DNA from: a virus
Virus record (IMG/VR): IMGVR_UViG_3300045988_177034
Strand: one strand, 5' to 3'
Length of the DNA: 64,000 nucleotides
In this document: positions 1,351 to 44,276 of the stretch, in pieces
How positions within the stretch are numbered: the first letter of the stretch is position 1
Layout: every line of letters begins with the position of its first letter
Made by a program: the position numbers and the translations under genes
Notes under the pieces: model-generated
Databases searched by the model: none
What the model was told of the DNA's origin: nothing
Seen by the model: the letters and a program-made list of their open reading frames with translations, nothing else

Positions 1351-1378
1351 ATTGTAGCTACTTTGCAGCAGTTTGCAA
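1351..1378 (-). promoter_or_regulatory. family-1 conserved promoter: TTGCAA - 16 nt (ACTGCTGCAAAGTAGC) - TACAAT
   Basis: -35 TTGCAA at 1373-1378 and -10 TACAAT at 1351-1356 (minus strand), exact 16-nt spacer; 7 near-identical copies in the window. Confidence 0.6.
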
Positions 1379-1391
1379 GAACTGTATCCTC

Positions 1392-2798
1392 TTAGACATG
1401 TTCAGGCAACCACTGCTGTGGGTAGGTTCGAAGTTTGTCCCGTGGCACGCAATCGTTCAGGGCGGAGTTTTCAGCAAGCGCCATGTCGATGATGTAATAA
1501 TCATCACCATTGCGCATCACATCAATACTCCACTGTCCTACCAGTTCGACAGCGGGAAGAATCTTCTTGATTTCATCCAAAATCATCCTAGCACTGTCAT
1601 CATATCGAGACTGCAGGATATCCTCGTGCATCTGATAGATGACATAGTCGTGGCGTTCCTGCGGTGTGCTTGCGTTTTTGAACTTACCCTTCATCACATC
1701 GGCTCGCCAATAAGGACTGATACCAAGCACCTCATCAGCGTCGAAATCGACGAATACGCGGTACTCAGTATGCAGCGGCAAACCGTTGTAGATGGTCGGG
1801 TTGTGTTCCTTGTCCTTGATATATTCCCTGAGCACCCACTCGTTTGTTGTATTAGCACCATAGAAGCAGGCATTATTCAACGGCGAAGCCATAGAACAGG
1901 TCAGATGATTCAGGAACAGGAAATACTCGCCCATCTCATTGATTTCCTTTGGGTCATGGATATGAGCGTTGCGAAACTCATACTTGGAAGAATAAGTTCC
2001 GGTCTTGATGAAGTAATCCTCGTGCTCATCCAGCTTGAATATCCGCTTGCAATAACGGTTCACGATTTCCTTGGTTACGGGATTCAGGGTTTCAAAACCA
2101 AGGCGAGTGAGCTGCAGCATCGGCAGCGGAACACGCAAAATCTTGGTATCAGGAATCCTGAAGAATTTGTTCCCGTACAACGCTTTTGCCAGCGGCGGAA
2201 GCCAGAATCCCATCGTGTTGGGATTCATTTCGAGCATCTGGTAGGTGAAGTCGTCGAGGTCAAGAATATCAAGACCCTGACGGAACTGGTTGTAGTAGAA
2301 CTTTTTCGTGCGGTCATCGCGTGCATCCTTGTACTCGGCGTAATTCTGAAGCAGAATCTTATACGACGGCTCCGAAATATCGACCTTCACGAGATTTCCT
2401 GTCAGCTGAGGTCTGAGCTCTTCCGGGTATTTTTTCAGGTCATCGTTCGTTACCGTTACAGCGTATCGAGATGCCGCATAGTTCACATAGTATCCGCCGC
2501 GTTTTTCGTTGTAGATGTACAGGCGAGTACCATCTGTTAACTCACCTACGATACGGTCGATAAGCGCTTCGAGGTCCCGTGTAAACGGCACCCTCTTGTC
2601 GAGCATAGCCTTGACAGTAGCGGTATCCCACTGTAAAAAGTTCTCGGATAATGCTCCGCTTTCCAGAACCTGTTTTTTATAGGCGTCCTCAAACGCTTTG
2701 AGGGCGTCAGGGCTGGTTTTCAGCATTGCGGCAAGTTCTTCGTAGGAAAACGATTTATCTTCCTTTTTGGTCATCATTTTACCGATTTTGGCAATCAT
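1392..2798 (-). CDS. putative ATP-grasp-fold enzyme (468 aa)
   Basis: AGGAGG ribosome-binding site 10 nt upstream; motifs EYRVFVDFD and YYIIDMALAENS (E-x-N) resemble the ATP-grasp C-terminal half; assignment is tentative. Confidence 0.55.
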   Translation of the reverse strand: MIAKIGKMMTKKEDKSFSYEELAAMLKTSPDALKAFEDAYKKQVLESGALSENFLQWDTATVKAMLDKRVPFTRDLEALIDRIVGELTDGTRLYIYNEKRGGYYVNYAASRYAVTVTNDDLKKYPEELRPQLTGNLVKVDISEPSYKILLQNYAEYKDARDDRTKKFYYNQFRQGLDILDLDDFTYQMLEMNPNTMGFWLPPLAKALYGNKFFRIPDTKILRVPLPMLQLTRLGFETLNPVTKEIVNRYCKRIFKLDEHEDYFIKTGTYSSKYEFRNAHIHDPKEINEMGEYFLFLNHLTCSMASPLNNACFYGANTTNEWVLREYIKDKEHNPTIYNGLPLHTEYRVFVDFDADEVLGISPYWRADVMKGKFKNASTPQERHDYVIYQMHEDILQSRYDDSARMILDEIKKILPAVELVGQWSIDVMRNGDDYYIIDMALAENSALNDCVPRDKLRTYPQQWLPEHV

Positions 2799-2824
2799 AT
2801 TTTAGATTTCCTCCTTTTTGGGAA

Positions 2825-3850
2825 TCAGGTGTTTTCAAAATCCGGATTCTTCCAAATCAACTTATTCCCGTAATAGACTTCGGGAATGTACTTGATGGGA
2901 ATTCTGCGATTGTCTTCGAGTTGCGAATCGTTGTTCGCGATAAACTCCTCGATGCGATTTTCTTCACTGCGCGGGGTGATGTTGCAAGTCGAGAAACCTC
3001 CACCGTACAGGATATCACTGTTCATCATACCTTTGACCGGATACTTTACTTCGGTCGTTTTACCGTTGATGTTCAGGACAAGGCGAACGGTTTTGTATTG
3101 CTTAGCAAGTTCCACAAGAAGCTTGAACATGATTTCCTGAGTGTTCGGACTATTGTACTTTCTCATATACTCTTCCGTCAACTCTTCCACCACAGCCAAT
3201 GTAATCCCGTATAGGCGTCCAGACCGCCCGGAATTTGCCTTTTTGATTTTCTCCATCGTCCGTTCAGCCCAGCCGGTTGGATTAGCAAGATAATCCACTA
3301 CCAGTTCATCGGCATTTGTGGATGTCAGGCCAAAGCAAGACCCATTTCCAATCTCATCGACAATGCTGTCAATAGGGCTGCGATAATTCTTATGCTCATT
3401 TATTATGCGACAGAAAGCGTTCTGTCGTGCTATCTTGTCGTAATAACCGCCCTTGAGAATTTTCTTCTTGTCTTCTTCCGTCACATTCTCTCGGAACATA
3501 TCGAACAGCTTCTGTGCCATTTCCTCTGTGACAGAATCCGAGGTAAAAGAAGAACGGCAGAAAATCGTTTTGAAGTCCTGTGTTTCATTGACGGTTTTGG
3601 CATTGTCGACAACGAGGCAAAGGAAGCGTATCTCCTGATTGAATGTTACGGGTTTCTTTTCCAAGGTTCCATAAAACCGCTGCCCGTACAAGGCATCTAC
3701 CTTGTGCTCGCCATTGGCGAGCGGCACACGAATGAAACGGTAGTAGCGCCCGGACGGTTTTCCGGTATCGGGAATTGTGTTGCCTTCGAACACGGATGCG
3801 CCGGATTTGATAGCCTGCTCAAAATCCTCACGAGTTAAATTGATAGTCAT
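2825..3850 (-). CDS. hypothetical protein (341 aa; start MTINLTRE)
   Basis: ORF 2825..3901 trimmed to the ATG at 3850, which has an AAGGAAG ribosome-binding site; 30-nt gap to the upstream gene. Confidence 0.6.
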   Translation of the reverse strand: MTINLTREDFEQAIKSGASVFEGNTIPDTGKPSGRYYRFIRVPLANGEHKVDALYGQRFYGTLEKKPVTFNQEIRFLCLVVDNAKTVNETQDFKTIFCRSSFTSDSVTEEMAQKLFDMFRENVTEEDKKKILKGGYYDKIARQNAFCRIINEHKNYRSPIDSIVDEIGNGSCFGLTSTNADELVVDYLANPTGWAERTMEKIKKANSGRSGRLYGITLAVVEELTEEYMRKYNSPNTQEIMFKLLVELAKQYKTVRLVLNINGKTTEVKYPVKGMMNSDILYGGGFSTCNITPRSEENRIEEFIANNDSQLEDNRRIPIKYIPEVYYGNKLIWKNPDFENT

Positions 3851-3879
3851 AATTTCTTCCTTTCTGTTTTTATTATTTT

Positions 3880-4665
3880 TTAGCTGTTTTCTTCGATGCA
3901 CAATTTGCTGCTACGAATGTTTTCCAACCATTTTTCATCCATAACATTGCCAATACGATACTTCCTCTGGGATTCATAGGACCAGTCACAACCGACGACA
4001 ACATCACCGATGGCATTCAGATACAGTTCTCCATCAGTGATATTGATTCCGGCTTCATTTCTCGGTTTACAATCTCTCTCATATTCAATCACAAGTTCCG
4101 AAACTATAGGTTCTCTCTTTAGAATCTGATTTGCGTTGATAGTTTTGGCACGACCCTCGTTAATGAGATATTGCTTGCGAAAATCCGTTACTTTATCATT
4201 ACGATTATATCTCAAACCGCTAAGAATACTCGCACTTTCGCGGGGAATTTCTTCATGAAAATCATCGCTGCTGATACAAAGACCACACGAATAGTCATCC
4301 TTGTCATCGCAATAATTCCACCATTCGAGGCTCGCCAAAGCGAGTTCTACCATCTTATCGACGGCTTTCCCGTTGGTTACCATATAAAAACTCCCAACGG
4401 AAATGTTTCGCTCTCTTACGGCGTTCAAAGTATAGCGGATAGCAGGAATATTCAAAGAAATTTCTCCACCCGTAAAGGTCAAGGAACTGATGTATCCTGC
4501 ATTAGCAAAACTGTCAAGAAACGCATCGATATATCTTTCCTGAATATCGACCGCCTCCGCATCACCACGCAAACAATGCGCACAGCACATATTACAGCGA
4601 CGAGTAACCTCAATTACCACATCACACGCGCTCGAAATATACATTCTATTTACTCCTTTCATCAA
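3880..4665 (-). CDS. radical SAM enzyme (MoaA/viperin-like core, 261 aa)
   Basis: CX3CX2C motif (RRCNMCCAHC) near the N-terminus, GGE motif (TFTGGEIS), TNG motif, ISSDDFHEE (resembles ISxDSxxEE of the MoaA/viperin clade), extra Cys C119/C127/C130/C233; start codon overlaps the upstream stop (ATGA). Confidence 0.8.
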   Translation of the reverse strand: MMKGVNRMYISSACDVVIEVTRRCNMCCAHCLRGDAEAVDIQERYIDAFLDSFANAGYISSLTFTGGEISLNIPAIRYTLNAVRERNISVGSFYMVTNGKAVDKMVELALASLEWWNYCDDKDDYSCGLCISSDDFHEEIPRESASILSGLRYNRNDKVTDFRKQYLINEGRAKTINANQILKREPIVSELVIEYERDCKPRNEAGINITDGELYLNAIGDVVVGCDWSYESQRKYRIGNVMDEKWLENIRSSKLCIEENS

Positions 4666-4970
4666 TTCTCGTCCGCAAAGCTCTCATTGCGGTCAACGAT
4701 GATATCCACATCCAGTGGTGTAATTTTACCCAGACCGTAATTCAAGAAGAACGAGCCGGGAATGTCATCGACATCGCCCCAGTTCCAGCAACCACAGTTG
4801 ATTTCAAGCTGTCGTTTGCCTTCGTCCGTCTTGAGATAATCTTTGATTGCGCCGCGCAGGACGCTTTCCGGGTCATTGATTTGCTCCGGATTATAGCTAA
4901 ACTGAATCAGTGTGCATTCCACTGCACGGTCAACAATCTCATTAGCAACAATTGTAAAAACCTTTGTCAT
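4662..4970 (-). CDS. small hypothetical protein (102 aa, MTKVFTIVANEIV...), translationally coupled to the radical SAM gene
   Basis: GGAGG ribosome-binding site 6 nt upstream of ATG 4970; stop overlaps the radical SAM start; contains CGCWNWGD. Confidence 0.55.
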   Translation of the reverse strand: MTKVFTIVANEIVDRAVECTLIQFSYNPEQINDPESVLRGAIKDYLKTDEGKRQLEINCGCWNWGDVDDIPGSFFLNYGLGKITPLDVDIIVDRNESFADEN

Positions 4971-4992
4971 AGTAATCCTCCTCAATAAACAG

Positions 4993-5448
4993 TCAGGCAC
5001 AACGAACGCGAATGACATTATCATCATTCGACAAGCAAACAATCACGTCCACATCCGGTCCCTCTTTCTCAAGAGCACCTTCAAGGATTGGCTTGATTTT
5101 GTGCCATTGATTTTCTGTGATTTTACAGCCGGGGCTCATAAGCAGAATATTTGCTTCGGCCAGCTTTGCTTTCATGACCACTTGTAGGAAACAACCGTAT
5201 AAGTATCCGTAATTCACCTTGTTATTTTCAAGACAAATCATATCTGCTATTACGGTCCTTTTATTACCATAGCAGTTCACAACATGTCCCAAGTGATGTT
5301 CAGATTTGTCATACCGTACCTTGGCATCCGGAAACATGCTTTCAATAGATTCGTTTTTGAAAACACCACTGCTATCACAAAAAACACAAACGATATTTTT
5401 GCCGGGAAACTCCTGACTTGATAAACAGCTTTTTGTCTTTTTTATCAA
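4993..5448 (-). CDS. hypothetical protein (151 aa; apparent TTG start, first ATG is at residue 37)
   Basis: ORF track; the frame begins TTG ATA AAA at 5448 with AAGGA 13 nt upstream; start codon uncertain. Confidence 0.45.
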   Translation of the reverse strand: MIKKTKSCLSSQEFPGKNIVCVFCDSSGVFKNESIESMFPDAKVRYDKSEHHLGHVVNCYGNKRTVIADMICLENNKVNYGYLYGCFLQVVMKAKLAEANILLMSPGCKITENQWHKIKPILEGALEKEGPDVDVIVCLSNDDNVIRVRCA

Positions 5449-5474
5449 TTTTTCTTCATCATCCTTTCGGCGAT

Positions 5475-5512
5475 AACAAAAAATACCGCCACCTCTTACG
5501 AGATAGCGGTAT
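5475..5512 (-). terminator. intrinsic-terminator-like hairpin plus T6 in the 5' leader (CTATCTCGTAAGAGGTGG core, related to the 1243-1279 hairpin)
   Basis: minus-strand read aTACCGCtatctcgtaagaggtgGCGGTAttttttgtt; downstream of promoter 5557-5584. Confidence 0.5.
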
Positions 5513-5556
5513 GTTGATTTTGAATTGTAATTGTATTTTATCTATCGAATATACTT

Positions 5557-5584
5557 AGTATATCGATTTTGCAGCAATTTGCAA
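5557..5584 (-). promoter_or_regulatory. family-1 conserved promoter: TTGCAA - 16 nt - TATACT
   Basis: minus-strand read gcgcTTGCAAattgctgcaaaatcgaTATACTaagtatattcgATAGATAAAAT. Confidence 0.55.
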
Positions 5585-5641
5585 GCGCAGCTATTTAGTG
5601 GCGCTTCAACTTTTTTCGGGGGTTTTATTTTTTCGCTTTAC

Positions 5642-6439
5642 TTACAGCAAACTCATCTCTGCACGATATGCATCGGCATCGTAGCCCCAGATATTACAAG
5701 CAAAATCGATTGCTGCGTTACCTTCGCTGGGATAACCGTCGTCAACAAAATCTCCTTTGCAAAGCGCATACCAGCCACAATTACTTCCGATATCCTCATC
5801 CGCATATTTTACACGAATATTGGCGTGTGGAAATTTACGGCTCAGTTCGACAATGGCGCATGTAGGCGTATTCCAAGGAGTCTTAAAGTTAACAGTGATT
5901 TCCGTATCATTTGTTCTACGGATACTCACATCGAAAACATCCCACTTTACGCCCCAGTTTGCGACACGCCAATAATACCACGAGGCATATCCATAGCTTA
6001 CGGCGTTTTCCAATGTACGTTCCGCCACAGCGTCGAACTCCTCGATATTATAGGGGATACGTTTCAGGTTGATGAGTTTGCTATCTTTCACATGTTCCAG
6101 TTTGGAGCGAGCTTCCGCAGCTTCTTTGCAAACACCAACCATATCTGATGCAGTAAGTTTTTCCTTCCTGTGCAGGAGAAAAGTTTCTCTGCAAATAGCC
6201 TTTCTTACGTTTTCCGGATACTTCTCCGGGTCAATTCCGTATTTATTTACGGCCGCCCATGCGAGCATCCTGTCACATGGCGATACGATTTGCAGTGATT
6301 CCGGCATAGGAACAACAGACTGAAGCGAAAAATCTTTTTCGCCATCATCGTCTTTTCCCTTGACACGATTCAGAAAATCCTCCAACTCTGCCTGAGAATT
6401 GAAAGAAACGGACATGATATTCATGATATTGTTTGCCAT
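5642..6439 (-). CDS. Api92/YubB-like protein (DUF1281 ferredoxin-like domain), 265 aa
   Basis: AAGGAG ribosome-binding site 7 nt upstream; motif WRVANWGVKWDV resembles the NWGTKWN signature of DUF1281 proteins found in plasmid leading regions; assignment tentative. Confidence 0.5.
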   Translation of the reverse strand: MANNIMNIMSVSFNSQAELEDFLNRVKGKDDDGEKDFSLQSVVPMPESLQIVSPCDRMLAWAAVNKYGIDPEKYPENVRKAICRETFLLHRKEKLTASDMVGVCKEAAEARSKLEHVKDSKLINLKRIPYNIEEFDAVAERTLENAVSYGYASWYYWRVANWGVKWDVFDVSIRRTNDTEITVNFKTPWNTPTCAIVELSRKFPHANIRVKYADEDIGSNCGWYALCKGDFVDDGYPSEGNAAIDFACNIWGYDADAYRAEMSLL

Positions 6440-6456
6440 TTATTTTCTCCTTTGTC

Positions 6457-6645
6457 TTACGCAGGTATGCGTACGCAAGAATAGTGGCAAGCTCCACAAT
6501 TCAGGAACTTTGCCCGCTTCATCGCCTCATCCAAGCTGAACCGCGTCGCTTCGTTAATGTTGGCAGTATCACTCTTACACTCTACGTAAAAACGCACATC
6601 TCCAAAAAACGGGTCTTTACGGCTTAGCGCATACATATTTTCCAA
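6457..6645 (-). CDS. small hypothetical protein (62 aa), TTG start
   Basis: GAGGAGG ribosome-binding site 7 nt upstream of TTG at 6645; its N-terminal region is duplicated as a degenerate copy at 7161-7230. Confidence 0.4.
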   Translation of the reverse strand: MENMYALSRKDPFFGDVRFYVECKSDTANINEATRFSLDEAMKRAKFLNCGACHYSCVRIPA

Positions 6646-6752
6646 AATAAGTCCTCCTCAAATATACTTCTCTCAGAACTTCTCGAATTCCTCGCTCGGC
6701 ATCTGTACTTTCGCTTCATCCAGCAGTCTTTTGTAGGAATCGCTGGAAACAT
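6553..6752. repeat. direct repeat copy B (200 bp), partner of 7161-7326
   Basis: aligned by eye: cgttaatgttggcagtatcactcttac...ggaatcgctggaaacat against copy A; copy A lacks 35 bp present in B. Confidence 0.7.
6646..6752 (-). pseudogene. remnant of the 3' end of a gene homologous to 7232..7972 (encodes ...VSSDSYKRLLDEAKVQMPSEEFEKF*, no start codon)
   Basis: about 88% identical to 7232-7326; an in-frame TAG lies immediately upstream, so the fragment cannot be translated from a start. Confidence 0.5.
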
Positions 6753-6772
6753 TTCCTTTCTATTTATTTTCA

Positions 6773-7114
6773 TCAAATGATAACGGCTTCCAATGCTACA
6801 GCACCAGACCCAATTTCATCAGCAACTTTTGATGCTGTTGCAAAATCGTTGTGAGCATACGGTCCTTGCGAATCCATATAAGTGACTCGGTAGGCATAAT
6901 CTGGCTCAAATGATGGGCTTACAATAATGTAAATACCAGTGTTTAACTGATATGTGATGGCATCAGCTTTTTCGATTTGAGCGATGATTTCCTTTCGACG
7001 CTTAGCTTCCGACTGCAAGTATTCAGATGCTGCTTCTTTAATAGGGTCACAAAGGAAAATATCGTCTGGATTACCCGTAATCGGGGGTAGGTCACCCGGA
7101 TAATAGGATATCAT
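6773..7114 (-). CDS. hypothetical protein (113 aa), flanked by the direct repeats
   Basis: AAGGAG ribosome-binding site upstream of ATG 7114. Confidence 0.6.
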   Translation of the reverse strand: MISYYPGDLPPITGNPDDIFLCDPIKEAASEYLQSEAKRRKEIIAQIEKADAITYQLNTGIYIIVSPSFEPDYAYRVTYMDSQGPYAHNDFATASKVADEIGSGAVALEAVII

Positions 7115-7160
7115 GCTTTCATCTCCTTCTTTTTGTCTTCAGCGATGACTTTTTGGAACA

Positions 7161-7326
7161 CGTTAATGTTGGTGGTATCGCTCTTACGCTTTACGGCTCA
7201 ACACATACATATTTTCCAAAATAAGTCCTCCTCAAATGTATCTCTCCCAGAACTTTTCGAATTCCTCGCTCGGCATCTGTGCTTCCGTTTCATCCAACAG
7301 TCTTTCGTAAGAATCACTGGAAACAT
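7161..7326. repeat. direct repeat copy A (166 bp), partner of 6553-6752
   Basis: spans the 3' end of gene 7232..7972, the intergenic ribosome-binding site and a truncated start (MYVLSRKA*) of a copy of the 62-aa gene. Confidence 0.7.
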
Positions 7327-7972
7327 CGGTGCCAATAAAATCAGCAACGGCATCATGACCGCGCTGCATCAAGGCGTCTTTCAGAATCGCCCAACGACAT
7401 TCGTGAATGGCATCATCCAGCGTTTTGTTGCCATCAGGCTGCCAATACTCGCCTGTCTGCTGAATTCTATAAAACTCATCCAGCGCATCATCAACATTGT
7501 TTTCGAGAAGAATATCGTCAATAAAATTGACAGGATAATCCTTGCCGTTGATTGTCACTTCTGCATAACTGAAACAGTCGTCGTCACACGGCATTGCTGC
7601 ACAGGTGACATCGAAAATTTCGTGCGTTTTCTTGTTTACCTTGCAAGGCAACTGGAATGTTGCTCCGGACTCGAAGTAAGAAAAGACAACCGCTTCCTCA
7701 ACATCGTTGTCGGGACATTTCGCAGACTGGATGAATTCCGGCATAGACAGCACATCAATACTCTCTCTTCGGTCGCCCATGGCAGGATAAACCTTCATGA
7801 TTGTATAACCATCATGCTGCAGCTTTCGGATAGCACGGCACAGGTCGAGATGCATTTCATGAAGGCTGATGCCACTACCTCGTCCGTCTTTTTTGGTATA
7901 GATTTCGACAACTACATCTTCAGAGGTGGTCTGAACAACATAATAAGTCTTATCATTACAAATCTTAAACAT
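7232..7972 (-). CDS. hypothetical protein (246 aa; start MFKICNDK)
   Basis: ORF 7232..7993 trimmed to the ATG at 7972, which has a GGGAG ribosome-binding site 9 nt upstream. Confidence 0.6.
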   Translation of the reverse strand: MFKICNDKTYYVVQTTSEDVVVEIYTKKDGRGSGISLHEMHLDLCRAIRKLQHDGYTIMKVYPAMGDRRESIDVLSMPEFIQSAKCPDNDVEEAVVFSYFESGATFQLPCKVNKKTHEIFDVTCAAMPCDDDCFSYAEVTINGKDYPVNFIDDILLENNVDDALDEFYRIQQTGEYWQPDGNKTLDDAIHECRWAILKDALMQRGHDAVADFIGTDVSSDSYERLLDETEAQMPSEEFEKFWERYI

Positions 7973-7993
7973 AGCACTTATCTCCCTTCTCAA

Positions 7994-8191
7994 TCAAACA
8001 AAAGCCAGAAAATCGTTGGCCGGAATCTGTCGCTGGGCATCGTAAGCGGTGCCGTAGACATCATCACCCCAACTGATTTGCACATCCTTCGTCCACAGAG
8101 CAAGCTCAGACATTTTTGCTGCCACGGCTTTTGCGGAGCTGCAGATATACTTCTTGACGGCGTTGTTTTCTTTTACGTTAATTGTAAACAT
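7994..8191 (-). CDS. small hypothetical protein (65 aa; start MFTINVKEN)
   Basis: ORF 7994..8275 trimmed to the ATG at 8191 with a GGAGG ribosome-binding site 8 nt upstream; the larger ORF would overlap the leader hairpin. Confidence 0.45.
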   Translation of the reverse strand: MFTINVKENNAVKKYICSSAKAVAAKMSELALWTKDVQISWGDDVYGTAYDAQRQIPANDFLAFV

Positions 8192-8210
8192 TTCAATTTC
8201 CTCCTTAACA

Positions 8211-8243
8211 CAACAAAAAACAGCCATCTCGATTGAGATGGCT
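8211..8243 (-). terminator. intrinsic-terminator-like hairpin (CAGCCATCTC-aatc-GAGATGGCTG plus T6) in the 5' leader
   Basis: minus-strand read gtgCAGCCATCTCaatcGAGATGGCTGttttttgttgtgtt, followed by the AAGGAGG ribosome-binding site and ATG 8191. Confidence 0.5.
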
Positions 8244-8308
8244 GCACGAACAGATTTTGAACTAAAACAAGTCAAGGAATTGATACTTTGATTTATCTTA
8301 GTTCCTTA

Positions 8309-8336
8309 ATTATATCTACTTTGCAGCAATTGACAA
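8309..8336 (-). promoter_or_regulatory. family-1 conserved promoter: TTGTCA - 16 nt - TATAAT
   Basis: minus-strand read ctatcTTGTCAattgctgcaaagtagaTATAATtaaggaactAAGATAAAT. Confidence 0.65.
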
Positions 8337-8366
8337 GATAGCCACAACAGGAATACGGCATCGTAT

Positions 8367-8588
8367 TCACGGTACTTTTTCAACGGCATCTTCACCATAA
8401 ACCACGAACAGACCAGAACCGTTATCCCAGCGAACCATGATACTGCCGGTATCGTCTATACCTGAAACTGTGCCGAGTGTTCCAATAGGCGGAGCCTGAA
8501 TATCATCCATTTTCAGCAGTTTCACGCGTGTTCCGGCTGGATATTCGGCACGGAGCGCAGCAACGATTTCTCGATTTGGAAAAATCAT
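8367..8588 (-). CDS. DUF4314-like small protein (73 aa)
   Basis: GAGGTG ribosome-binding site; motif IMVRWDNGSGLFVVYGED resembles the DUF4314 proteins common on Firmicutes mobile elements; tentative. Confidence 0.5.
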   Translation of the reverse strand: MIFPNREIVAALRAEYPAGTRVKLLKMDDIQAPPIGTLGTVSGIDDTGSIMVRWDNGSGLFVVYGEDAVEKVP

Positions 8589-8604
8589 AAATACACCTCG
8601 CCTC

Positions 8605-9153
8605 TTAGTATGTCACGGTGTCAAAGAACTCCTGACATTCCTCATCGTTCAACACAACACCAAAGTAGGCAACACGCTCGACGGTGGTTTCCCACACCTT
8701 AACGGTACGCGTCATAGGCTGAACGACCCACGAATGCTGTCGCCAAAGGCCATCTTCACTCAGGGCATATCCGGTCGCAATCTGACATCTGCCACGATTT
8801 GCATCCCACAGATAAGCAGCGTTCTGATGGCAACGACAATCTTCGCCCTTCTTCATGTACCTGGAGTTATAAAAAAACTGTCCTCGTTCCAGCACTTTCT
8901 CCGCATCTTCGTCACGAGTATTGAGCAAAACCTCATCGCCACCGAAAGTTAAAATTCTGTCACGCAGAGCACGCAAAGTCTTTTTCATTTCGTTTGTGAG
9001 CCAAGGCGCGGTAGCGTCCTCGTTGTACAGCTGCATCGCCTCTACTCGTTTTTTCCAGTCCTCACTCATCGGATTCCACTTGATAGGGTTTGCAACCATA
9101 TCAGGAGAGGTCATGGGTGTTTTGGCATTCCAACTGAATTTCTTATTTGCCAT
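8605..9153 (-). CDS. hypothetical protein (182 aa)
   Basis: AAAGGAG ribosome-binding site; a 60-bp degenerate copy of an internal segment recurs at about 9384-9442. Confidence 0.65.
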   Translation of the reverse strand: MANKKFSWNAKTPMTSPDMVANPIKWNPMSEDWKKRVEAMQLYNEDATAPWLTNEMKKTLRALRDRILTFGGDEVLLNTRDEDAEKVLERGQFFYNSRYMKKGEDCRCHQNAAYLWDANRGRCQIATGYALSEDGLWRQHSWVVQPMTRTVKVWETTVERVAYFGVVLNDEECQEFFDTVTY

Positions 9154-9167
9154 CGTAATACTCCTTT

Positions 9168-9202
9168 CGAAAAACCCGCTTACCAGTAGAGGTAAGCGGG
9201 TT
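9168..9202 (-). terminator. intrinsic terminator (AACCCGCTTACC-tctact-GGTAAGCGGGTT plus T5) immediately upstream of the ribosome-binding site of gene 8605..9153
   Basis: perfect 12-bp stem followed by TTTTTCG on the minus strand. Confidence 0.6.
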
Positions 9203-9254
9203 ATATTTTATTTATGCGAGCATGGGATATATTTCTTTTTTGCCACCCACATAT

Positions 9255-9289
9255 TTCAATCTAACGCAACCCATGAGGGTTGCAACAGC
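9255..9289. repeat. 35-bp repeat copy 1, TTCAATCTAACGCAACCCATGAGGGTTGCAACAGC, with internal palindrome GCAACCC-N4-GGGTTGC
   Basis: direct repeat of 9445-9479 with about 5 mismatches. Confidence 0.6.
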
Positions 9290-9444
9290 CCCTTCTTAAA
9301 AACTCATTCACTTCTATTTGTACAAGATAGAAACGACCTTTCATCGCACGGTTTAAACCGTGGGTTCTCTTAGTCTGCCTTTATAAGCAGTGTTCTGATA
9401 ACAACGGCAACTTTCGCCATTCTTCATGTATTTGGAGCCGTAAT

Positions 9445-9479
9445 TTCAATCAAACGCAACCCGCATGGGTTGCAACAGC
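9445..9479. repeat. 35-bp repeat copy 2, TTCAATCAAACGCAACCCGCATGGGTTGCAACAGC
   Basis: direct repeat of 9255-9289; lies in the 340-bp non-coding region 9203-9542. Confidence 0.6.
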
Positions 9480-9542
9480 AAACTTGCACAAACGAAGCGA
9501 CAAGTTGTCATACATTTTGTACAATGTTTGTCTGCTTTTATT

Positions 9543-9839
9543 TCATCCCCACACTTCAGTGACTTTTCTGGGGATTCCGTGCTTGTCGATTTGCCGTCGA
9601 TAAATCGTGAACTTGCTCTTGGGATGAGCATTCACGTAATCGTTTCTTGCGACATCGGTGTTCGCAATCAGCAGATTTTTATCAGCAATAAGAACGCTTT
9701 CCCATCCAGAATCGAGAAGCGTACTGGCAACATCCTTGAAAGATACGTCTGCAGGCGTATCGCACTTACAAACCCCTCGTGCGATAGGATGCGCAGTGGC
9801 AATGATTTTTGCTGCCGTCATCACAGTCTCGTAACTCAT
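9543..9839 (-). CDS. hypothetical protein (98 aa)
   Basis: GGAGG ribosome-binding site upstream of ATG 9839. Confidence 0.55.
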   Translation of the reverse strand: MSYETVMTAAKIIATAHPIARGVCKCDTPADVSFKDVASTLLDSGWESVLIADKNLLIANTDVARNDYVNAHPKSKFTIYRRQIDKHGIPRKVTEVWG

Positions 9840-9851
9840 AGTGTCCTCCTA

Positions 9852-10103
9852 TCACGCCACCTCGAAATACTTTTCGACATCGCTGTTGATAGAACGCGCA
9901 GGAACACCCTTGGTCTTCTCACTGTAGTAGCCACGCTTTTTCAGCGTGTTCTTAACAATAGAAATGCTCTTGTCGCTGCGCATGGTACGCTTTCTCTTTT
10001 CGATGCGTGCAGAACGAATGCGCTTTTCGTACTTCTGCATACGAACAGCGTCCATAATGATAGGAGCAGTAGTCTCCGCGACATACTCATTAAAAGTTTT
10101 CAT
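9852..10103 (-). CDS. hypothetical basic protein (83 aa; start MKTFNEY)
   Basis: GGAGGA ribosome-binding site 9 nt upstream of ATG 10103. Confidence 0.5.
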   Translation of the reverse strand: MKTFNEYVAETTAPIIMDAVRMQKYEKRIRSARIEKRKRTMRSDKSISIVKNTLKKRGYYSEKTKGVPARSINSDVEKYFEVA

Positions 10104-10135
10104 ATTCACATATCCTCCGTAATATATTATTTTTC

Positions 10136-10174
10136 TAAATAAAAAAGGCAGCTATTTTCTCAAAAATAGCTACC
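10136..10174 (-). terminator. intrinsic-terminator-like hairpin plus T6 in the 5' leader of gene 9852..10103
   Basis: minus-strand read GGTAGCTATTTTtgagAAAATAGCTGCCttttttattt; lies between promoter 10267-10294 and the ribosome-binding site. Confidence 0.5.
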
Positions 10175-10266
10175 TTTAGTACATTGTGATTGGCGATAAT
10201 TCAATCATGCACGCCCATAAAACTCTGGTGCGATGCATTGTGTGATTTTATTTATCGGATAACTAT

Positions 10267-10294
10267 ATATTATTAACTTTGCAGCAATTTGCAA
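10267..10294 (-). promoter_or_regulatory. family-1 conserved promoter: TTGCAA - 16 nt - TAATAT
   Basis: minus-strand read tgtaCTTGCAAattgctgcaaagttaaTAATATatagttatccGATAAAT. Confidence 0.6.
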
Positions 10295-10306
10295 GTACAG
10301 GATACA

Positions 10307-10340
10307 ATAAAAAGCGCCTCCCGTATTACGGGGAAGCGCC
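10307..10340 (-). terminator. strong intrinsic terminator (GGCGCTTCCCCG-tatta-CGGGGAGGCGC plus T5) after gene 10351..10950
   Basis: 11-bp GC-rich stem followed by TTTTTATTG on the minus strand, between the stop at 10351 and the -35 at 10294. Confidence 0.7.
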
Positions 10341-10350
10341 TTAGTGTTAT

Positions 10351-10950
10351 TTATTCTTTGTTATCCGAAGGAATTTTCGGAGACTTCTTCTTCTCAACGA
10401 AAGCATCAATCGTTCGGCCGAAACGATTAAGAAGCATTGCGCCAAGATAAAGAATGATGCCGCTAATCATGATACCAACATCAAGCGTCTCAAATCCTGC
10501 GAAACTCTTGCAATAAATAGAACTGACTGCGAGAGCGCCAAGCGTTGGCAGAGAAGCAATCGTTACCGTGAGTGCCGCATACACAACACTATTCAGAACA
10601 GTACCAATGCTTGCAATGATGCCGCGCTTTTTAAAAGTGCGCTGCTTATCGTAGGACATCTGATAAGCCCCGATAAGACTTGGTTCACGAATAATGTCGC
10701 GCAGATGCAGCAGGCACCACGCCAAAACAGCACACCCGATGCCGCAGCCGACCTTATAGGCACTCATGCGAGAACCCCACAGGTCATTTGCGTTGGCGGG
10801 AACGACGAACGCCAGAATGTTGAACAGGACGGCAAACAAGACGAACATTGCCATGTGGGGATTCTTGGCAGTGTTGCGAGCCTCGTTCTTTGCCTTACTT
10901 GTGATTTCCTCGGTCTGATTGTGAATTTTCACATTGAGAATCTTTTCCAT
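10351..10950 (-). CDS. integral membrane protein (199 aa, about 4 predicted transmembrane helices)
   Basis: AAAGGAAAGG ribosome-binding site; long hydrophobic segments; no motif recognised. Confidence 0.6.
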   Translation of the reverse strand: MEKILNVKIHNQTEEITSKAKNEARNTAKNPHMAMFVLFAVLFNILAFVVPANANDLWGSRMSAYKVGCGIGCAVLAWCLLHLRDIIREPSLIGAYQMSYDKQRTFKKRGIIASIGTVLNSVVYAALTVTIASLPTLGALAVSSIYCKSFAGFETLDVGIMISGIILYLGAMLLNRFGRTIDAFVEKKKSPKIPSDNKE

Positions 10951-11071
10951 TTTTACCTTTCCTTTCTTGCGAACGATTTAGTTATAAATCGTTTTTTAGT
11001 CGTGATAGTGATGCGAAATACCGTATATGATTGCGAGCGCTAATGCAATGTAGATATAAAGATATCCCTTT

Positions 11072-11182
11072 TCAATCAGCCTCAATGATTCCGTTCCAGT
11101 CGAGAGCGGCGATGAAGCTGACTCCCATGGTGAAAATCCACAAAAACGCGGCAACGAGAACGATACTGTCAAGCACATTCAT
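11072..11182 (-). CDS. small hydrophobic peptide (36 aa, MNVLDSIVLVAAFLWIFTMGVSFIAALDWNGIIEAD)
   Basis: GGAGG ribosome-binding site 8 nt upstream of ATG 11182; I prefer this to the overlapping 60-aa ORF 10996..11178, which has no ribosome-binding site. Confidence 0.35.
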   Translation of the reverse strand: MNVLDSIVLVAAFLWIFTMGVSFIAALDWNGIIEAD

Positions 11183-11233
11183 AGTAAATACCTCCATAGT
11201 TTAAAGAGTTGTAAATATCGGACATCTATATAA

Positions 11234-11271
11234 ACAGCAAAAAGCCGCCAATGGGACAATCCACTGGCGGC
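11234..11271 (-). terminator. intrinsic-terminator-like hairpin (GCCGCCAGTGG-attgtc-CCATTGGCGGC plus T5); also the likely terminator of the sec-sortase operon
   Basis: lies downstream of sortase gene and promoter 11326-11353 and upstream of the small peptide gene. Confidence 0.55.
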
Positions 11272-11325
11272 TCAGTTGCCGATTGCAATAATACAGTTAA
11301 ATCATTTGATTTATGTTATGTCTTA

Positions 11326-11353
11326 ATTATATTAACTTCGCAGCATAATGCAA
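11326..11353 (-). promoter_or_regulatory. family-1 conserved promoter: TTGCAT - 16 nt - TATAAT
   Basis: minus-strand read acacTTGCATtatgctgcgaagttaaTATAATtaagacataacATAAAT. Confidence 0.6.
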
Positions 11354-11360
11354 GTGTTTT

Positions 11361-33005: not shown

Positions 33006-33043
33006 AAATGGAATTCCCCCTGTCTTTCCAATCGATATATTAT

Positions 33044-34276: not shown

Positions 34277-34304
34277 ATTGTATCTACTTTGCAGCAAATA
34301 GCAA
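34277..34304 (-). promoter_or_regulatory. family-1-type promoter variant: TTGCTA - 16 nt (TTTGCTGCAAAGTAGA) - TACAAT
   Basis: same ATTGCTGCAAAGTAGA spacer core as the other family-1 copies. Confidence 0.5.
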
Positions 34305-34903: not shown

Positions 34904-34925
34904 TCTTATTCCTCCTCTTTTTTAT

Positions 34926-34954
34926 ATTATACCACATTTTGTTTTAATGGTCAA
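34926..34954 (-). promoter_or_regulatory. family-2 conserved promoter: TTGACC - 17 nt - TATAAT
   Basis: minus-strand read agTTGACCattaaaacaaaatgtggTATAATataaaaaagAGGAGG. Confidence 0.6.
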
Positions 34955-34965
34955 CTTGTATAATA

Positions 34966-35811: not shown

Positions 35812-35878
35812 GAGTAACTTCTCCTTTTTCATGTGTGTTTGTTTGATGTGCATAAACAAGCTTCATGCACTATGCTTA

Positions 35879-35907
35879 TATTATACCACCAAAAACATAA
35901 ATAGTCA
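35879..35907 (-). promoter_or_regulatory. family-2 conserved promoter: TTGACT - 17 nt - TATAAT
   Basis: minus-strand read tgTTGACTatttatgtttttggtggTATAATataagc. Confidence 0.6.
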
Positions 35908-35987
35908 ACAAAGAATAGCGCCCCACAGATTTACCTGCGGAGCGCTATATGTTATCTCTTACGCGGAGTAGAGATTATTTCAGTTGG

Positions 35988-43931: not shown

Positions 43932-44075
43932 GTTAGTTGCCCTCCTAATAATGTGAGTATTCTGTGGTTTTACCACAGCCGGATTTATATACACCCTTAC
44001 CTACTCCCTAGTGTGCAGCCTCGATTGTAGATAAGAAAGTATATCAAAACACAAGCAATCAAATTGCATATTTAC

Positions 44076-44104
44076 AATATGCCACAAAAAGACAGAAAAG
44101 TCAA
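44076..44104 (-). promoter_or_regulatory. weak family-2-like promoter: TTGACT - 17 nt ending TGTGG - CATATT
   Basis: conserved -35 and spacer, degenerate -10. Confidence 0.3.
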
Positions 44105-44248
44105 TCAAAAAATTTGGCACAAAAATGCCACCCATGAACGCATTCTCATATTTCGTATGGACATGGATGGTTGAAACATTAACGCAAAACCTGCTTGACT
44201 ATGGCTATTATTTGTTCTGAGAAATTTGATGCTGTATTTATATCTATT

Positions 44249-44276
44249 ATATTACTTACTTTGCAGCAACGGTCAA
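44249..44276 (-). promoter_or_regulatory. family-1 conserved promoter: TTGACC - 16 nt (GTTGCTGCAAAGTAAG) - TAATAT
   Basis: minus-strand read ttaTTGACCgttgctgcaaagtaagTAATATaatagatATAAATA; upstream of giant adhesin 1. Confidence 0.55.

What the first reader, a model, noticed from the sequence alone, without database searches (positions are those of the whole stretch)
1351..44276. Family-1 promoter cassette repeated 7 times: TTGCAA - ATTGCTGCAAAGTAGA - TATAAT - (N9) - GATAAAT
Seven minus-strand sites (1351-1378, 5557-5584, 8309-8336, 10267-10294, 11326-11353, 34277-34304, 44249-44276) share much more than -35 and -10 hexamers. The 16-nt spacer is almost invariant, and five of the seven carry a conserved (A)GATAAAT block about 10 nt downstream of the -10. 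The spacer TTGCAaattgcTGCAA contains a 5-bp dyad (TTGCA / TGCAA) overlapping the -35, which looks like an operator for a dimeric regulator. Such near-identical cassettes are typical of a co-regulated phage or plasmid regulon with a single repressor or activator. Six of the seven copies lie in the 1-11 kb block of small genes.
Basis: seen in the sequence. Interest (0 to 1): 0.7.

Follow-up and report, generated by a model that had tools for sequence, protein, structure and literature searches.

The report
Signature promoter cassette of Hodor megaplasmids
The seven repeats are real copies of a private promoter type, used dozens of times by a recently described giant gut-bacterial plasmid ("Hodor") and usually followed by a short leader and a terminator, which suggests that one still-unidentified regulator controls the plasmid's cargo genes.

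Summary
All seven minus-strand sites exist at the stated coordinates. They score 34-42 bits with their own matrix; nothing else in the window exceeds 8 bits.

The window is part of a "Hodor" conjugative megaplasmid of human-gut Bacillota (preprint PMC12934698), which does not mention promoters.

- **Copy number:** four more copies lie just left of the window. A 346-kb relative shows 31 strict matches, all on one strand.
- **Promoter:** a sigma-A-like core, TTGCnn, 16 nt, TAtAcT. The spacer holds a near-invariant, fixed-position box, TTGCTGCAAAGT (-27 to -16).
- **Dyad:** the proposed TTGCA/TGCAA dyad is present in only 16 of 51 distinct copies.
- **Sister lineages:** they keep the same layout with a different box (nTGCGAA). 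Shared gene blocks lose homology at cassette borders.
- **Second promoter class:** a canonical extended -10 class (TGTGGTATAAT) drives core genes in the same window.

I infer one regulon read by a dedicated box-binding factor, with the leader terminator as a second checkpoint. The factor and the direction of its effect are unidentified. No transcription start was mapped.

The parts
1351..1378 (-). Family-1 promoter, site 1: TTGCAA-ACTGCTGCAAAGTAGC-TACAAT
   Evidence: intergenic between genes 1392-2798 and 917-1225
1327..1339 (-). Leader box A of site 1 (GATAAATAAAAAG), 11 nt after the -10
1290..1298 (-). Leader box B of site 1 (TTTAAAATC)
   Evidence: the same block (TTCAAAATC) sits before the terminator in most copies
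1246..1279 (-). Leader intrinsic terminator of site 1 (GCGACCATCTC-GTTA-GAGATGGCCGC + T-run), upstream of the ribosome-binding site and the ATG at 1225
5557..5584 (-). Family-1 promoter, site 2 (box variant TTGCTGCAAAAT; -10 TATACT)
5533..5546 (-). Leader box A of site 2 (GATAGATAAAATAC)
5516..5525 (-). Leader box B of site 2 (ATTCAAAATC)
5478..5512 (-). Leader intrinsic terminator of site 2 (13-bp stem + T6)
8309..8336 (-). Family-1 promoter, site 3 (TTGTCA ... TATAAT)
8286..8297 (-). Leader box A of site 3 (GATAAATCAAAG)
8253..8262 (-). Leader box B of site 3 (GTTCAAAATC)
8215..8245 (-). Leader intrinsic terminator of site 3 (GCAGCCATCTC-AATC-GAGATGGCTGT + T6), followed by AAGGAGG and the ATG at 8191
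10267..10294 (-). Family-1 promoter, site 4; a separate terminator of the upstream gene lies at 10311-10342
10244..10256 (-). Leader box A of site 4 (GATAAATAAAATC)
10182..10191 (-). Leader box B-like block of site 4 (AATCACAATG), resembling the sister-lineage block TTCACAATTTCG
10141..10177 (-). Leader intrinsic terminator of site 4 (15-bp stem + T6), before GGAGG and the start codon
11326..11353 (-). Family-1 promoter, site 5 (box variant ATGCTGCGAAGT, with the G typical of sister lineages), immediately after the sortase-like gene
11303..11315 (-). Leader box A of site 5 (CATAAATCAAATG)
11239..11273 (-). Leader intrinsic terminator of site 5 (13-bp stem)
34277..34304 (-). Family-1 promoter, site 6: no box A and no leader terminator; runs directly into the ribosome-binding site of a lipoprotein-like gene (probable start near 34210)
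44249..44276 (-). Family-1 promoter, site 7, between the 6542-aa and 2668-aa surface-protein genes
44121..44170 (-). Weak terminator-like hairpin with a long loop downstream of site 7, followed by a canonical-type promoter (TTGACT...TGTGGCATATTGT)

Best explanation
**What it is.** The seven sites are copies of the signature promoter of one lineage of Hodor conjugative megaplasmids, which live in human-gut Bacillota.

**Shown from sequence**
- Each site has a sigma-A-type core: TTGCnn, a 16-nt spacer, then TAtAcT or TAnAAT.
- The spacer carries a near-invariant box at a fixed position, TTGCTGCAAAGT (-27 to -16).
- A whole plasmid carries about 30 or more copies, all pointing the same way as the genes.
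- About 90% of copies are the front end of a roughly 100-150-bp cassette. The order is promoter, A-rich leader box (GATAAAT or AAAAATAAAA, about +3 to +16), second box (TTCAAAATC), strong intrinsic terminator, ribosome-binding site, gene.

**Inferred**
- Host sigma-A RNA polymerase starts transcription at these promoters.
- One dedicated sequence-specific factor reads the box. The box can also be written TTGC-N6-CTGCAAAGT, two (T)TGC units 10 bp apart that overlap the -35 and fill the spacer.
- The factor therefore makes all cargo modules, and part of the surface-protein locus, one regulon.
- I rate a positive specificity factor (an activator or a helper of sigma) as somewhat more likely than a repressor.
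- The leader terminator acts as a second checkpoint. Transcripts end as RNAs of roughly 60-140 nt unless the terminator is read through, either by constitutive attenuation or by regulated antitermination.
- The conserved cassettes also mark the borders at which gene modules are exchanged between plasmids.
For: **Reality and scale**
- establish the seven sites and the wider family.
- An unbiased check anchored on leader box B found the promoter box with at most 1 mismatch upstream of 41 of 42 distinct leaders.
- The N5 and N3 positions beside the box vary freely while the box does not. This points to selection on the box rather than recent copying.

**Element identity**
- The window has SecY, an FKBP/trigger-factor-like protein, a sortase-like gene, a ParM-like actin, a Dam methylase and surface proteins of 6542 and 2668 aa. 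These match the Hodor description in PMC12934698.
- An identical protein occurs in sample ERR3451245, the Hodor10 sample.

**Leader terminators**
- Five of the seven window sites have a strong hairpin plus T-run before the ribosome-binding site.
- A crude detector found a terminator in 45 of 68 distinct contexts. Most of the apparent misses had visibly mismatched stems or were chance hits from unrelated contigs.
- The terminator stem covaries in sister lineages: 8 of 13 pairs show compensatory changes.
- Copies without box A (site 6, L241 18583) also lack the terminator.

**Lineage-specific box**
- Sister lineages use TTGC-N6-nTGCGAA-N5-TAnAAT. This holds when anchored only on their leader (32 distinct copies). 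It includes the closest backbone relative, with SecY 90% identical.
- L241 and L248 share gene blocks at 76-96% nucleotide identity, but the homology stops at cassette borders.

**Not the host default**
- The same window has 7-8 canonical promoters, TTGAC-N14-TGTGGTATAATATA, without the box. They sit in front of core genes.

**Activator-like features**
- The -35 is non-consensus (C at position 4 in 38 of 51).
- The spacer is 16 nt, there is no TG extension, and the -10 is mostly TATACT (26 of 51).
- The box keeps a strictly fixed position relative to both hexamers in all lineages.
- The same box sits on promoters of integrase, Rep and XRE-like genes of small integrative elements that share no detectable regulator with Hodor. 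This recalls islands that sense a helper plasmid.
Against: - No transcription start, RNA end or binding datum was available. Promoter function is inferred from sequence only.
- No candidate protein could be tied to the box. The 353-aa protein that looked sigma-like by eye has no Pfam, PDB or fold support.
- The box contains a 9-bp palindrome (TTGCTGCAA), and 38 of 51 copies have TTGC-N8-GCAA. That geometry suits a dimeric repressor. Plasmid-wide regulons known from my own knowledge (IncP KorA/KorB, Inc18 omega) are mostly repressive.
- Both box types occur in tandem on some relatives (L546, L472, and one copy). The two boxes might therefore serve two factors in one cell rather than lineage-specific versions of one factor.
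- The factor could be host-encoded. No host chromosome could be scanned, because the single genome-collection scan used a wrong pattern.
Confidence: 0.55

Rival explanations
1. The box is the operator of a plasmid-encoded dimeric repressor that sits between the -35 and the -10 and blocks RNA polymerase. The whole cargo regulon stays silent in established cells and fires briefly after conjugative entry into a cell that has no repressor yet.
For: - The box has partial dyads: TTGC-N8-GCAA in 38 of 51 copies, and an inner 9-bp palindrome TTGCTGCAA.
- Some sister-lineage boxes are palindromic, for example ATTCG-TG-CGAAT.
- A site in the spacer is the classic place for steric repression.
- From my own knowledge, IncP-1 KorA/KorB, Inc18 omega and the IncW R388 network are plasmid-wide repressor regulons.
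- Two conserved regulator-like genes on the opposite strand exist in the core: an XRE-type gene at 25407-25637 and a 220-aa protein at 23048-23710.
Against:
- The strictly fixed position and the systematically sub-consensus core (TTGC, 16-nt spacer, TATACT, no TG) are more typical of factor-dependent promoters. The same plasmid does use perfect consensus promoters elsewhere.
- Under a repressor model, the integrative elements carrying the box on their integrase and Rep promoters would be switched on whenever Hodor is absent.
- The model does not explain the leader terminators.
Confidence: 0.25
2. This is promoter-loaded processive antitermination, like lambda Q at PR'. A factor binds the spacer box, transfers to RNA polymerase early in the leader, and makes it resistant to the leader terminator and to later terminators. 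Without the factor, only short leader RNAs are made.
For: - The layout parallels PR'-QBE-tR': a constitutive-looking promoter, a conserved element in the spacer, a conserved block in the first 15 transcribed nucleotides, and a terminator 45-142 nt after the -10 and before the gene.
- Fourteen of the 68 distinct contexts, including site 4, have a T-run immediately upstream of the -35, consistent with a separate terminator of the upstream gene. The leader terminator is then not simply the end of that gene.
Against: - The leader block is not -10-like. No hexamer in GATAAAT, AAAAATAAAA or CGATAGATAAC has both the A at position 2 and the T at position 6 that a sigma-dependent pause needs (read).
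- The box also occurs on promoters with no leader terminator: site 6, L241 18583, and integrative-element promoters with 34-35-nt untranslated regions.
- No Q-like or NusG-like protein was detected among about 40 window proteins scanned.
Confidence: 0.12
3. There is no dedicated factor. The cassette is a self-contained promoter-plus-terminator punctuation unit that spread by duplication and is kept uniform by recombination. The box only tunes intrinsic promoter strength or serves as a recombination border.
For: - The copies share far more than the promoter, including the leader boxes and the terminator stem sequence CCATCTC/GAGATGG. They are therefore related by descent.
- Homology between plasmids breaks at cassette borders.
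Against: - Positions directly flanking the box (N5, N3) and the leader interiors have diverged freely, while 11-12 bp stay invariant in more than 40 independent copies. Gene conversion would homogenise the neighbours as well.
- Each lineage keeps its own box across many diverged cassettes.
- Unrelated integrative elements carry the box without the rest of the cassette.
Confidence: 0.12
4. The cassettes are genes for a multi-copy family of small RNAs of roughly 60-140 nt. Each has its own promoter and terminator, and the conserved 5' box A acts as a seed on plasmid or host messages.
For: - Each unit has its own promoter and terminator, conserved 5' and 3' blocks and a variable middle, with dozens of copies.
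- The sister leaders appear, by my reading of the sequences, to have a variable inner hairpin closed by a TGTACG/CGTACA stem. The consensus fold did not recover that stem.
Against: - Every copy lies in sense orientation immediately upstream of a ribosome-binding site and gene. Usually no other promoter is visible between the upstream stop codon and that gene, so the gene depends on read-through.
- No Rfam family matched.
- Only the terminator stem showed covariation in the consensus fold.
Confidence: 0.08

Closest known systems
IncP-1 (RK2) KorA/KorB and Inc18 omega global plasmid regulons (from my own knowledge)
   Same: One short DNA motif recurs at many promoters around a conjugative plasmid and ties backbone or cargo expression into a single regulon.
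   Different: Those operators are palindromes or heptad arrays at variable positions, number about 3-12 per plasmid, and are repressive. Here the box is asymmetric, sits at one fixed position inside the spacer, occurs about 30 or more times per plasmid, and is joined to a leader terminator. No homologue of those regulators was detected.
AcaCD activator regulon of IncC plasmids and SGI1-type islands (from my own knowledge)
   Same: A plasmid-wide set of promoters shares one box, and small integrative elements carry the same box on excision and replication genes. Here the box is found on integrase, Rep and XRE-like promoters of integrative elements.
   Different: AcaCD boxes lie upstream of or over the -35 in Proteobacteria. 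Here the box fills the spacer of a Bacillota-type promoter. No FlhDC-like protein was seen, and dependence on a helper plasmid is untested.
Lambda PR'-QBE-tR' late-gene module (from my own knowledge)
   Same: A factor-binding element lies between the -35 and the -10, a conserved early transcribed block follows, and a terminator gives a short RNA unless it is read through.
   Different: Lambda has one copy per phage; here there are dozens. The early block is not -10-like, so the sigma-dependent pause element was tested and not met. No Q homologue was found, and some copies have no terminator.
Lambda CII / P22 C1 activator sites, TTGC-N6-TTGC (from my own knowledge)
   Same: The family-wide consensus can be written TTGC-N6-nTGC. 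This is a (T)TGC direct repeat at 10-bp spacing over the -35 region of a promoter with a sub-consensus -35.
   Different: The repeat lies about 4 bp closer to the -10 than at lambda PRE (from my own knowledge). The second unit is CTGC, GTGC or TTGC followed by conserved (A/G)AA. No CII-like protein was identified.
Phage T7 promoter plus RNase III-site punctuation, and T4 MotA-box middle promoters (from my own knowledge)
   Same: A private, highly conserved promoter sequence is repeated in one orientation along a unidirectional genome and paired with a conserved hairpin (T7). A box replaces or adds to -35 recognition by the host polymerase (T4 MotA).
   Different: The core here looks like host sigma-A, not a phage polymerase promoter. 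The MotA box is centred near -30, while this box is centred near -21/-22. The hairpins here have T-runs typical of terminators.

Membership tests
Sigma-70/sigma-A type promoter | -35-like and -10-like hexamers separated by 16-18 nt | tested here: met
   TTG is invariant, C at position 4 in 38 of 51, 16-nt spacer, TA...T invariant, commonest -10 TATACT. TTG and TA...T were imposed by the search pattern in the large set. They emerge unforced in the leader-anchored sister set.
Sigma-70/sigma-A type promoter | Transcription starts 6-9 nt downstream of the -10 | not testable with these tools
   No RNA data were available. The A seven nt after the -10 is only predicted.
Operator of a dimeric (palindrome-binding) regulator | A dyad symmetry conserved across the copies | tested here: inconclusive
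   The 5-bp arms TTGCA/TGCAA are present in 3 of 7 window copies and 16 of 51 distinct copies. The 4-bp arms TTGC-N8-GCAA are present in 38 of 51. The inner palindrome TTGCTGCAA is invariant, but so are the non-symmetric flanking bases AGT.
Lambda Q-type antitermination module | A sigma-dependent pause element (-10-like hexamer with A at position 2 and T at position 6) in the first ~25 transcribed nt | tested here: not met
   No such hexamer exists in GATAAAT, AAAAATAAAA or CGATAGATAAC (sequences).
Lambda Q-type antitermination module | A terminator shortly downstream of the promoter | tested here: met
   Five of seven window copies, and most copies elsewhere, have one 45-142 nt after the -10.
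Lambda Q-type antitermination module | A Q-family protein encoded by the element | tested here: not met
   No antiterminator family appeared in Pfam, PHROGs or NCBIfam scans of about 40 window proteins. The rest of the roughly 350-kb plasmid was not examined.
Intrinsic (factor-independent) terminator | G+C-rich hairpin directly followed by a T-run, with the stem maintained by compensatory changes | tested here: met
   Stems of 11-15 bp plus T5-T7. In 13 sister leaders, 8 of 13 stem pairs show changes on both sides.
Known RNA families (Rfam 15) | A match at gathering score to any leader, riboswitch or small-RNA model | tested here: not met
   No match at gathering score across the whole window. 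Only sub-threshold hits (E 0.3-3.6) appeared in 1-12 kb.
Hodor conjugative megaplasmids (PMC12934698) | Surface module: sortase next to hyp/SecY/SecG/SecE and trigger factor, plus two giant secreted proteins (>7300 aa and ~2642 aa), and ParM-type partition | tested here: met
   SecY at 14084-15424, FKBP/trigger-factor-like at 12344-13507, sortase-like at 11361-12332 (by eye; no Pfam hit), giant proteins of 6542 and 2668 aa, ParM-like at 24209-25168. An identical protein occurs in the Hodor10 sample ERR3451245. Rep_3, the type IV secretion system and the MOBH relaxase lie outside the window and were not checked.
   The 353-aa protein at 21392-22453 has no Pfam, NCBIfam or PDB sequence hit. Its AlphaFold model has pLDDT 59, and Foldseek found nothing at E <= 0.001. 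Sigma-28 appeared only at rank 27 with probability 0.35.
Generic host repeat (REP-like element or chromosome-wide terminator) | Presence across host chromosomes | tested here: inconclusive
   In the metagenome scan, 89 of 120 loci were Hodor DNA. The remainder were other mobile elements, plus one chromosomal promoter (pncB-like by eye) repeated from one organism, at a level chance can explain. The genome-collection scan used a wrong gap and is uninformative.

The most novel reading that the evidence does not exclude
Hodor megaplasmids use a private promoter grammar.
- A so-far unrecognised specificity factor docks on a fixed-position spacer box. It licenses host RNA polymerase both to initiate and to pass the terminator built into almost every cargo cassette.
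- Plasmid lineages have switched the box in concert (CTGCAAAGT versus nTGCGAA).
- Unrelated small integrative elements carry the same box on their integrase and replication promoters, so they can sense the arrival of the megaplasmid.
Probability: 0.2. Interest if true: 0.8.

Novelty: new variant of a known kind. Interest (0 to 1): 0.55.

Why it matters
Hodor plasmids are about 350 kb, are reported in thousands of human-gut and wastewater metagenomes, and were described only in 2026. That description says nothing about how they are transcribed.

- **Testable regulon:** a single 12-bp box present about 30 or more times per plasmid, coupled to a built-in terminator, gives a concrete model of how such a large plasmid keeps its cargo under one switch.
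- **Annotation marker:** the box is a cheap sequence marker for recognising Hodor fragments and cargo-module borders in metagenomes.
- **Handle for the regulator:** it can be used for pull-down or DAP-seq, or by correlating box type with protein families across the 38 curated genomes.
- **Cross-talk:** the same box on small integrative elements hints at regulatory links between mobile elements in gut Bacillota.

Tried and rejected
1. **Wrong-gap scans.** My first three collection scans used N4 instead of N3 between AAAGT and the -10. They returned only chance hits. The corrected pattern was used.
2. **Megablast.** Window bases 1-12000 found nothing in the phage or plasmid collections.
3. **Rfam.** No family matched at gathering score or at relaxed E-values.
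4. **Sigma-factor idea.** The 353-aa protein at 21392-22453 has a C-terminal helix-turn-helix that looked like sigma region 4 by eye. It has only four Hodor-specific clusters of homologues. It has no domain hit and no PDB sequence hit. The model is of low confidence and gave no significant fold match. Rejected for lack of support.
5. **Alternative sigma readings, by eye.** A sigma-28/sigma-D reading (CAAAGT...CCGATAA) needs a spacer 3 nt too long. An ECF-like reading (TGCGAAC...CGATA) needs a 20-21-nt spacer. Matches to Spo0A, LexA, Rex, CodY and cre boxes were at most partial. All rejected.
6. **Long-range leader helix.** Pairing between the A-rich 5' leader and the U-tract plus downstream bases was only slightly better for cognate than for non-cognate partners (-8.1 versus -6.2 kcal/mol; 39% of non-cognate partners were as good or better). 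Not established.
7. **Inner stems of the sister leader.** TGTACG/CGTACA and a variable hairpin are visible by eye. The consensus fold did not recover them because the variable region misaligns.
8. **Shared regulator.** A search for a regulator common to Hodor DNA and the integrative elements found only a cargo lipoprotein-like match.
9. **Walking along the contig.** This was not possible, because only window-encoded proteins may be looked up.
10. **The 93-aa Mor-like protein.** The relative search for 28671-28952 returned only near-identical copies in the three Family-1-type contigs. It is uninformative about sister lineages.

Full report

Yes. The seven 28-nt sites are on the minus strand at exactly the stated coordinates. 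A weight matrix made from them scores the seven at 34-42 bits. Nothing else on either strand of the window exceeds 8 bits, and the best value in 20 shuffles was 18 bits. The matrix is self-trained, so those scores are optimistic.

An independent check agrees. The 12-mer TTGCTGCAAAGT with up to 2 mismatches occurs 17 times against 7.1 +/- 2.5 expected. Six of the seven matches with at most 1 mismatch are the claimed sites.

All seven sites are intergenic and lie on the coding strand of the next gene. The downstream block is GATAAAT at sites 1, 3 and 4, starting 10-11 nt after the -10. Site 2 has GATAGATAAAA, site 5 CATAAAT and site 7 TATAAAT. Site 6 has none.

- Five, not six, copies lie in the 1-11.4 kb block.
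- The TTGCA/TGCAA dyad is complete at only three of the seven sites.

**2. What element is this?**

An exact-protein look-up places the window on a 161.7-kb contig of an ENA metagenome assembly whose record name carries METAG. Window position p corresponds to record position 51152+p. The same protein is found in sample ERR3451245.

The window encodes the following:
- a SecY homologue;
- an FKBP/trigger-factor-like protein;
- a sortase-like protein;
- a flotillin-like protein;
- a ParM/Alp7A-like actin;
- a Dam-type methylase;
- two giant secreted proteins of 6542 and 2668 aa.

This combination defines the "Hodor" conjugative megaplasmids of human-gut Bacillota, described in a 2026 preprint (PMC12934698). 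That paper detects Hodor10, a member of its G2 group, in ERR3451245. The words promoter, terminator, sigma and antitermination do not occur in the paper. A second literature search found no other paper on these plasmids.

**3. The family is far larger than seven.**

The 8.6 kb left of the window holds four more copies. The corrected pattern TTGN5TGCTGCAAAGTN3TAN3T returned 114 stretches from IMG/VR. The 80 displayed rows give these counts:

| Contig size | Strict matches | Strand |
|---|---|---|
| 346 kb | 31 | all one strand |
| 240 kb | 23 | all one strand |
| 143 kb | 21 | all one strand |

These yield about 51-58 distinct genuine cassettes. The composite is:
- **-35:** TTGC in 38 of 51 copies, followed by variable bases.
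- **Box:** TTGCTGCAAAGT at -27 to -16.
- **Before the -10:** three variable bases.
- **-10:** mostly TATACT (26 of 51).

The search pattern forced the box, so I made an unbiased check. I anchored on the leader block ATTCAAAATC and looked upstream. Of 42 distinct leaders, 41 have the box with at most one mismatch. The variable flanks next to an invariant 11-12 bp argue for selection on the box itself, not for recent copying.

**4. The promoter is the front end of a longer cassette.**

In the window, sites 1-5 are each followed by a strong hairpin plus T-run. The hairpin starts 44-89 nt after the -10. It lies before the ribosome-binding site of the next gene. Site 7 has a weak hairpin with a long loop. 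Site 6 runs directly into a ribosome-binding site.

Across the family:
- A crude detector found a terminator in 45 of 68 distinct contexts. Most apparent misses were stems with one mismatch or chance hits from unrelated contigs.
- The terminator ends 45-142 nt after the -10, with a median of 89 nt.
It often reads CCAAAAAATAAAAGC.
- A second block, TTCAAAATC, lies a few to about ten nt before the hairpin.
- Many hairpins share the stem sequence CCATCTC/GAGATGG.
- Copies that lack the leader block also lack the terminator (site 6, L241 18583). The two therefore belong together.
- Fourteen of the 68 contexts, and site 4 in the window, have a T-run directly upstream of the -35. The upstream gene probably has its own terminator there, so the leader terminator is not simply the end of the previous gene.

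**5. Relatives use the same layout with a different box.**

The 468-aa window protein has relatives on 57 IMG/VR loci. Loci of the window's own lineage carry Family-1 copies. Other lineages score only about 17 bits or less with the matrix.

Those other lineages have TTGC-N6-nTGCGAA-N5-TAnAAT. It is followed by GTACGATAGATAAC, a variable hairpin, CGTACAATTCACAATTTCG and a terminator.

- Anchoring only on that leader recovers the promoter consensus tTGc..a..TgCGAA..g.atA.aAT from 32 distinct copies.
- With only TGCGAA-N5-TA...T imposed, TTGC emerges at 0.8-1.6 bits per position. TGCGAA is 2.7 times commoner on the gene strand.
- The terminator stem covaries: 8 of 13 pairs have compensatory changes.
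- The backbone lineage closest to the window (SecY 90% identical, sortase 75%) uses the TGCGAA type, including back-to-back divergent promoters.
- L241 and L248 share gene blocks at 76-96% nucleotide identity, but the homology ends at the cassettes.
- Site 5 of the window (CTGCGAAGT) is intermediate between the two types.

The family-wide core is therefore TGC(A/G)AA at about -23 to -18. It can also be written TTGC-N6-nTGC, a (T)TGC repeat with 10-bp spacing.

**6. It is not simply the host's default promoter.**

The same window has 7-8 promoters of a second class, TTGAC-N14-TGTGGTATAATATA. This is the canonical Bacillota sigma-A consensus with an extended -10. They lie in front of core genes between 17 and 36 kb, plus one on the plus strand at 22920. 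None carries the box.

In the metagenome scan, 89 of 120 loci were at least 50% covered by known Hodor DNA. The largest contigs in the displayed rows are about 300 kb.

The 30 uncovered loci fall into three groups:
- One chromosomal promoter, upstream of genes that look like pncB/pncA by eye. It recurs in nine loci. A pattern with 18 specified bases can produce this by chance in a database of that size.
- Genuine copies on small integrative elements. These carry a tyrosine integrase, a Rep with Viral_Rep and helicase domains, and an XRE-like gene. One is inserted next to glf and a LytTR regulator gene.
- Another plasmid lineage with VirB4-like and ParM-like genes. There a Family-1 promoter stands in tandem with a TTGC-N6-TTGCGAA promoter.

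No regulator shared between those elements and Hodor DNA was found. My only genome-collection scan used a wrong gap, so chromosome-wide absence is not proven.

**7. How it most likely works.**

Shown from sequence:
- a sigma-A-like core;
- an invariant box at a fixed position;
- co-orientation with genes;
- a leader and terminator before the gene;
- lineage-specific boxes;
- module borders at the cassettes.

Inferred:
- Host sigma-A polymerase initiates at these promoters.
- One dedicated factor reads the box and ties all cassettes into one regulon.
- The terminator is a second checkpoint.

I lean towards a positive specificity factor, for four reasons:
- The core is systematically sub-consensus (TTGC, 16-nt spacer, TATACT, no TG), although the same plasmid uses perfect promoters elsewhere.
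- The position of the box relative to both hexamers never varies in more than 100 diverged cassettes.
- Integrase and Rep promoters of unrelated integrative elements carry the box. This makes sense if they sense a helper plasmid.
- The (T)TGC repeat at 10-bp spacing resembles activator sites such as lambda CII. That comparison rests on my own knowledge, and the repeat here is about 4 bp closer to the -10.

A repressor remains a serious rival. The box contains partial dyads, and the plasmid precedents are repressive.

A lambda-Q-like mechanism fits the promoter-then-terminator order. However, the leader block is not -10-like, some box-bearing promoters have no terminator, and no Q-like protein was seen.

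No candidate protein could be linked to the box. The sigma-like impression of the 353-aa protein found no support.

**8. Novelty and limits.**

Plasmid-wide regulons and promoter-proximal terminators are both known kinds of feature. The following combination was not found described in the Hodor preprint or in the two literature searches run here:
- a fixed spacer box;
- about 30 or more copies per plasmid;
- a built-in leader terminator;
- box variants that differ by lineage;
- sharing with small integrative elements.

I rate it a new variant of a known kind, with moderate interest. The main weakness is that everything functional is inferred from sequence. No transcription start, RNA end or binding datum was available.

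Noticed in passing
window minus strand 17000-17036, 18523-18559, 25326-25362, 31119-31155, 33036-33072, 34918-34954, 35872-35908; plus strand 22920-22956: A second near-identical promoter class, TTGAC-N14-TGTGGTATAATATA (canonical sigma-A with an extended -10). It sits in front of core genes and lacks the TGCTGCAAAGT box. The copy at 18523-18559 lies inside the 474-aa reading frame 17783-19207, so that frame may be mis-called or may hold an internal promoter.
   Followed up: partly
window 25363-25376: A perfect Bacillota-type LexA (Cheo) box, CGAAC-N4-GTTCG. It lies in the divergent region between the ParM-like gene and the XRE gene, just upstream of the ParM promoter. It is the only copy in the window (0.1 expected). 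This suggests an SOS input to partition or regulator genes.
   Followed up: partly
window 9263-9287 and 9453-9477 (minus strand), within the 389-nt gap 9154-9542: Two copies of a 25-nt hairpin element, TGTTGCAACCC-N4-GGGTTGCGTT, each followed by (T/A)GATTGAAAT. Between them lies CCACGGTTTAAACCGTGCGATGAAAGGTCGTTTCTATCTT. That block recurs downstream of a Family-1 cassette in L260. This may be an unannotated structured RNA; no Rfam match was found.
   Followed up: partly
L465 (motifs at 8579 and 12598), L498, L515, L524, L437: Small integrative elements carry exact Family-1 boxes on the promoters of their XRE-like, Rep-like and other genes. They encode a tyrosine integrase, a Rep with Viral_Rep plus helicase domains, and a 79-aa XRE-like protein. 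L465 is inserted next to glf and a LytTR response-regulator gene.
   Followed up: partly
L546 2662-2760 and L472 401-500; also one cassette (TTGCGCAGTGCTGCAAAGTAGGTATAAT ... TTGACACCACTTGCGAACCGCATATCAT): A Family-1 promoter and a TGCGAA-type promoter stand in tandem in front of the same gene. The two box types can therefore coexist on one replicon.
   Followed up: no
Leader terminators, e.g. window 1246-1279, and sister-lineage alignment A2 columns 85 and 108: Many terminator stems keep a conserved A-C mismatch a few pairs above the base (GCGAC.../...GCCGC in the window; GCGGAC.../...GGCCCGC in sister lineages), while the surrounding pairs covary.
   Followed up: no
window 44360-63988: The giant surface-protein reading frame is 6542 aa from its first ATG, and that ATG lies only 12 nt from the window edge. 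The Hodor paper reports 7309-7704 aa for this protein. The true start may lie beyond the window, or this copy may be shorter or interrupted.
   Followed up: no
L283 18603-18800 and L299 9286-9480: In sister lineages a TGCGAA-type promoter stands directly upstream of what looks like a tRNA gene. This promoter class therefore also drives RNA genes. tRNA detection was not run on these loci.
   Followed up: no
window 23271-23285: A near-copy of the box (TTGCTGCAAATT, 1 mismatch; it also reads TTGCAGCAATGT on the other strand). It lies inside the coding region of the plus-strand 220-aa XRE-like gene and has no promoter hexamers around it. It is probably a chance match.
   Followed up: no
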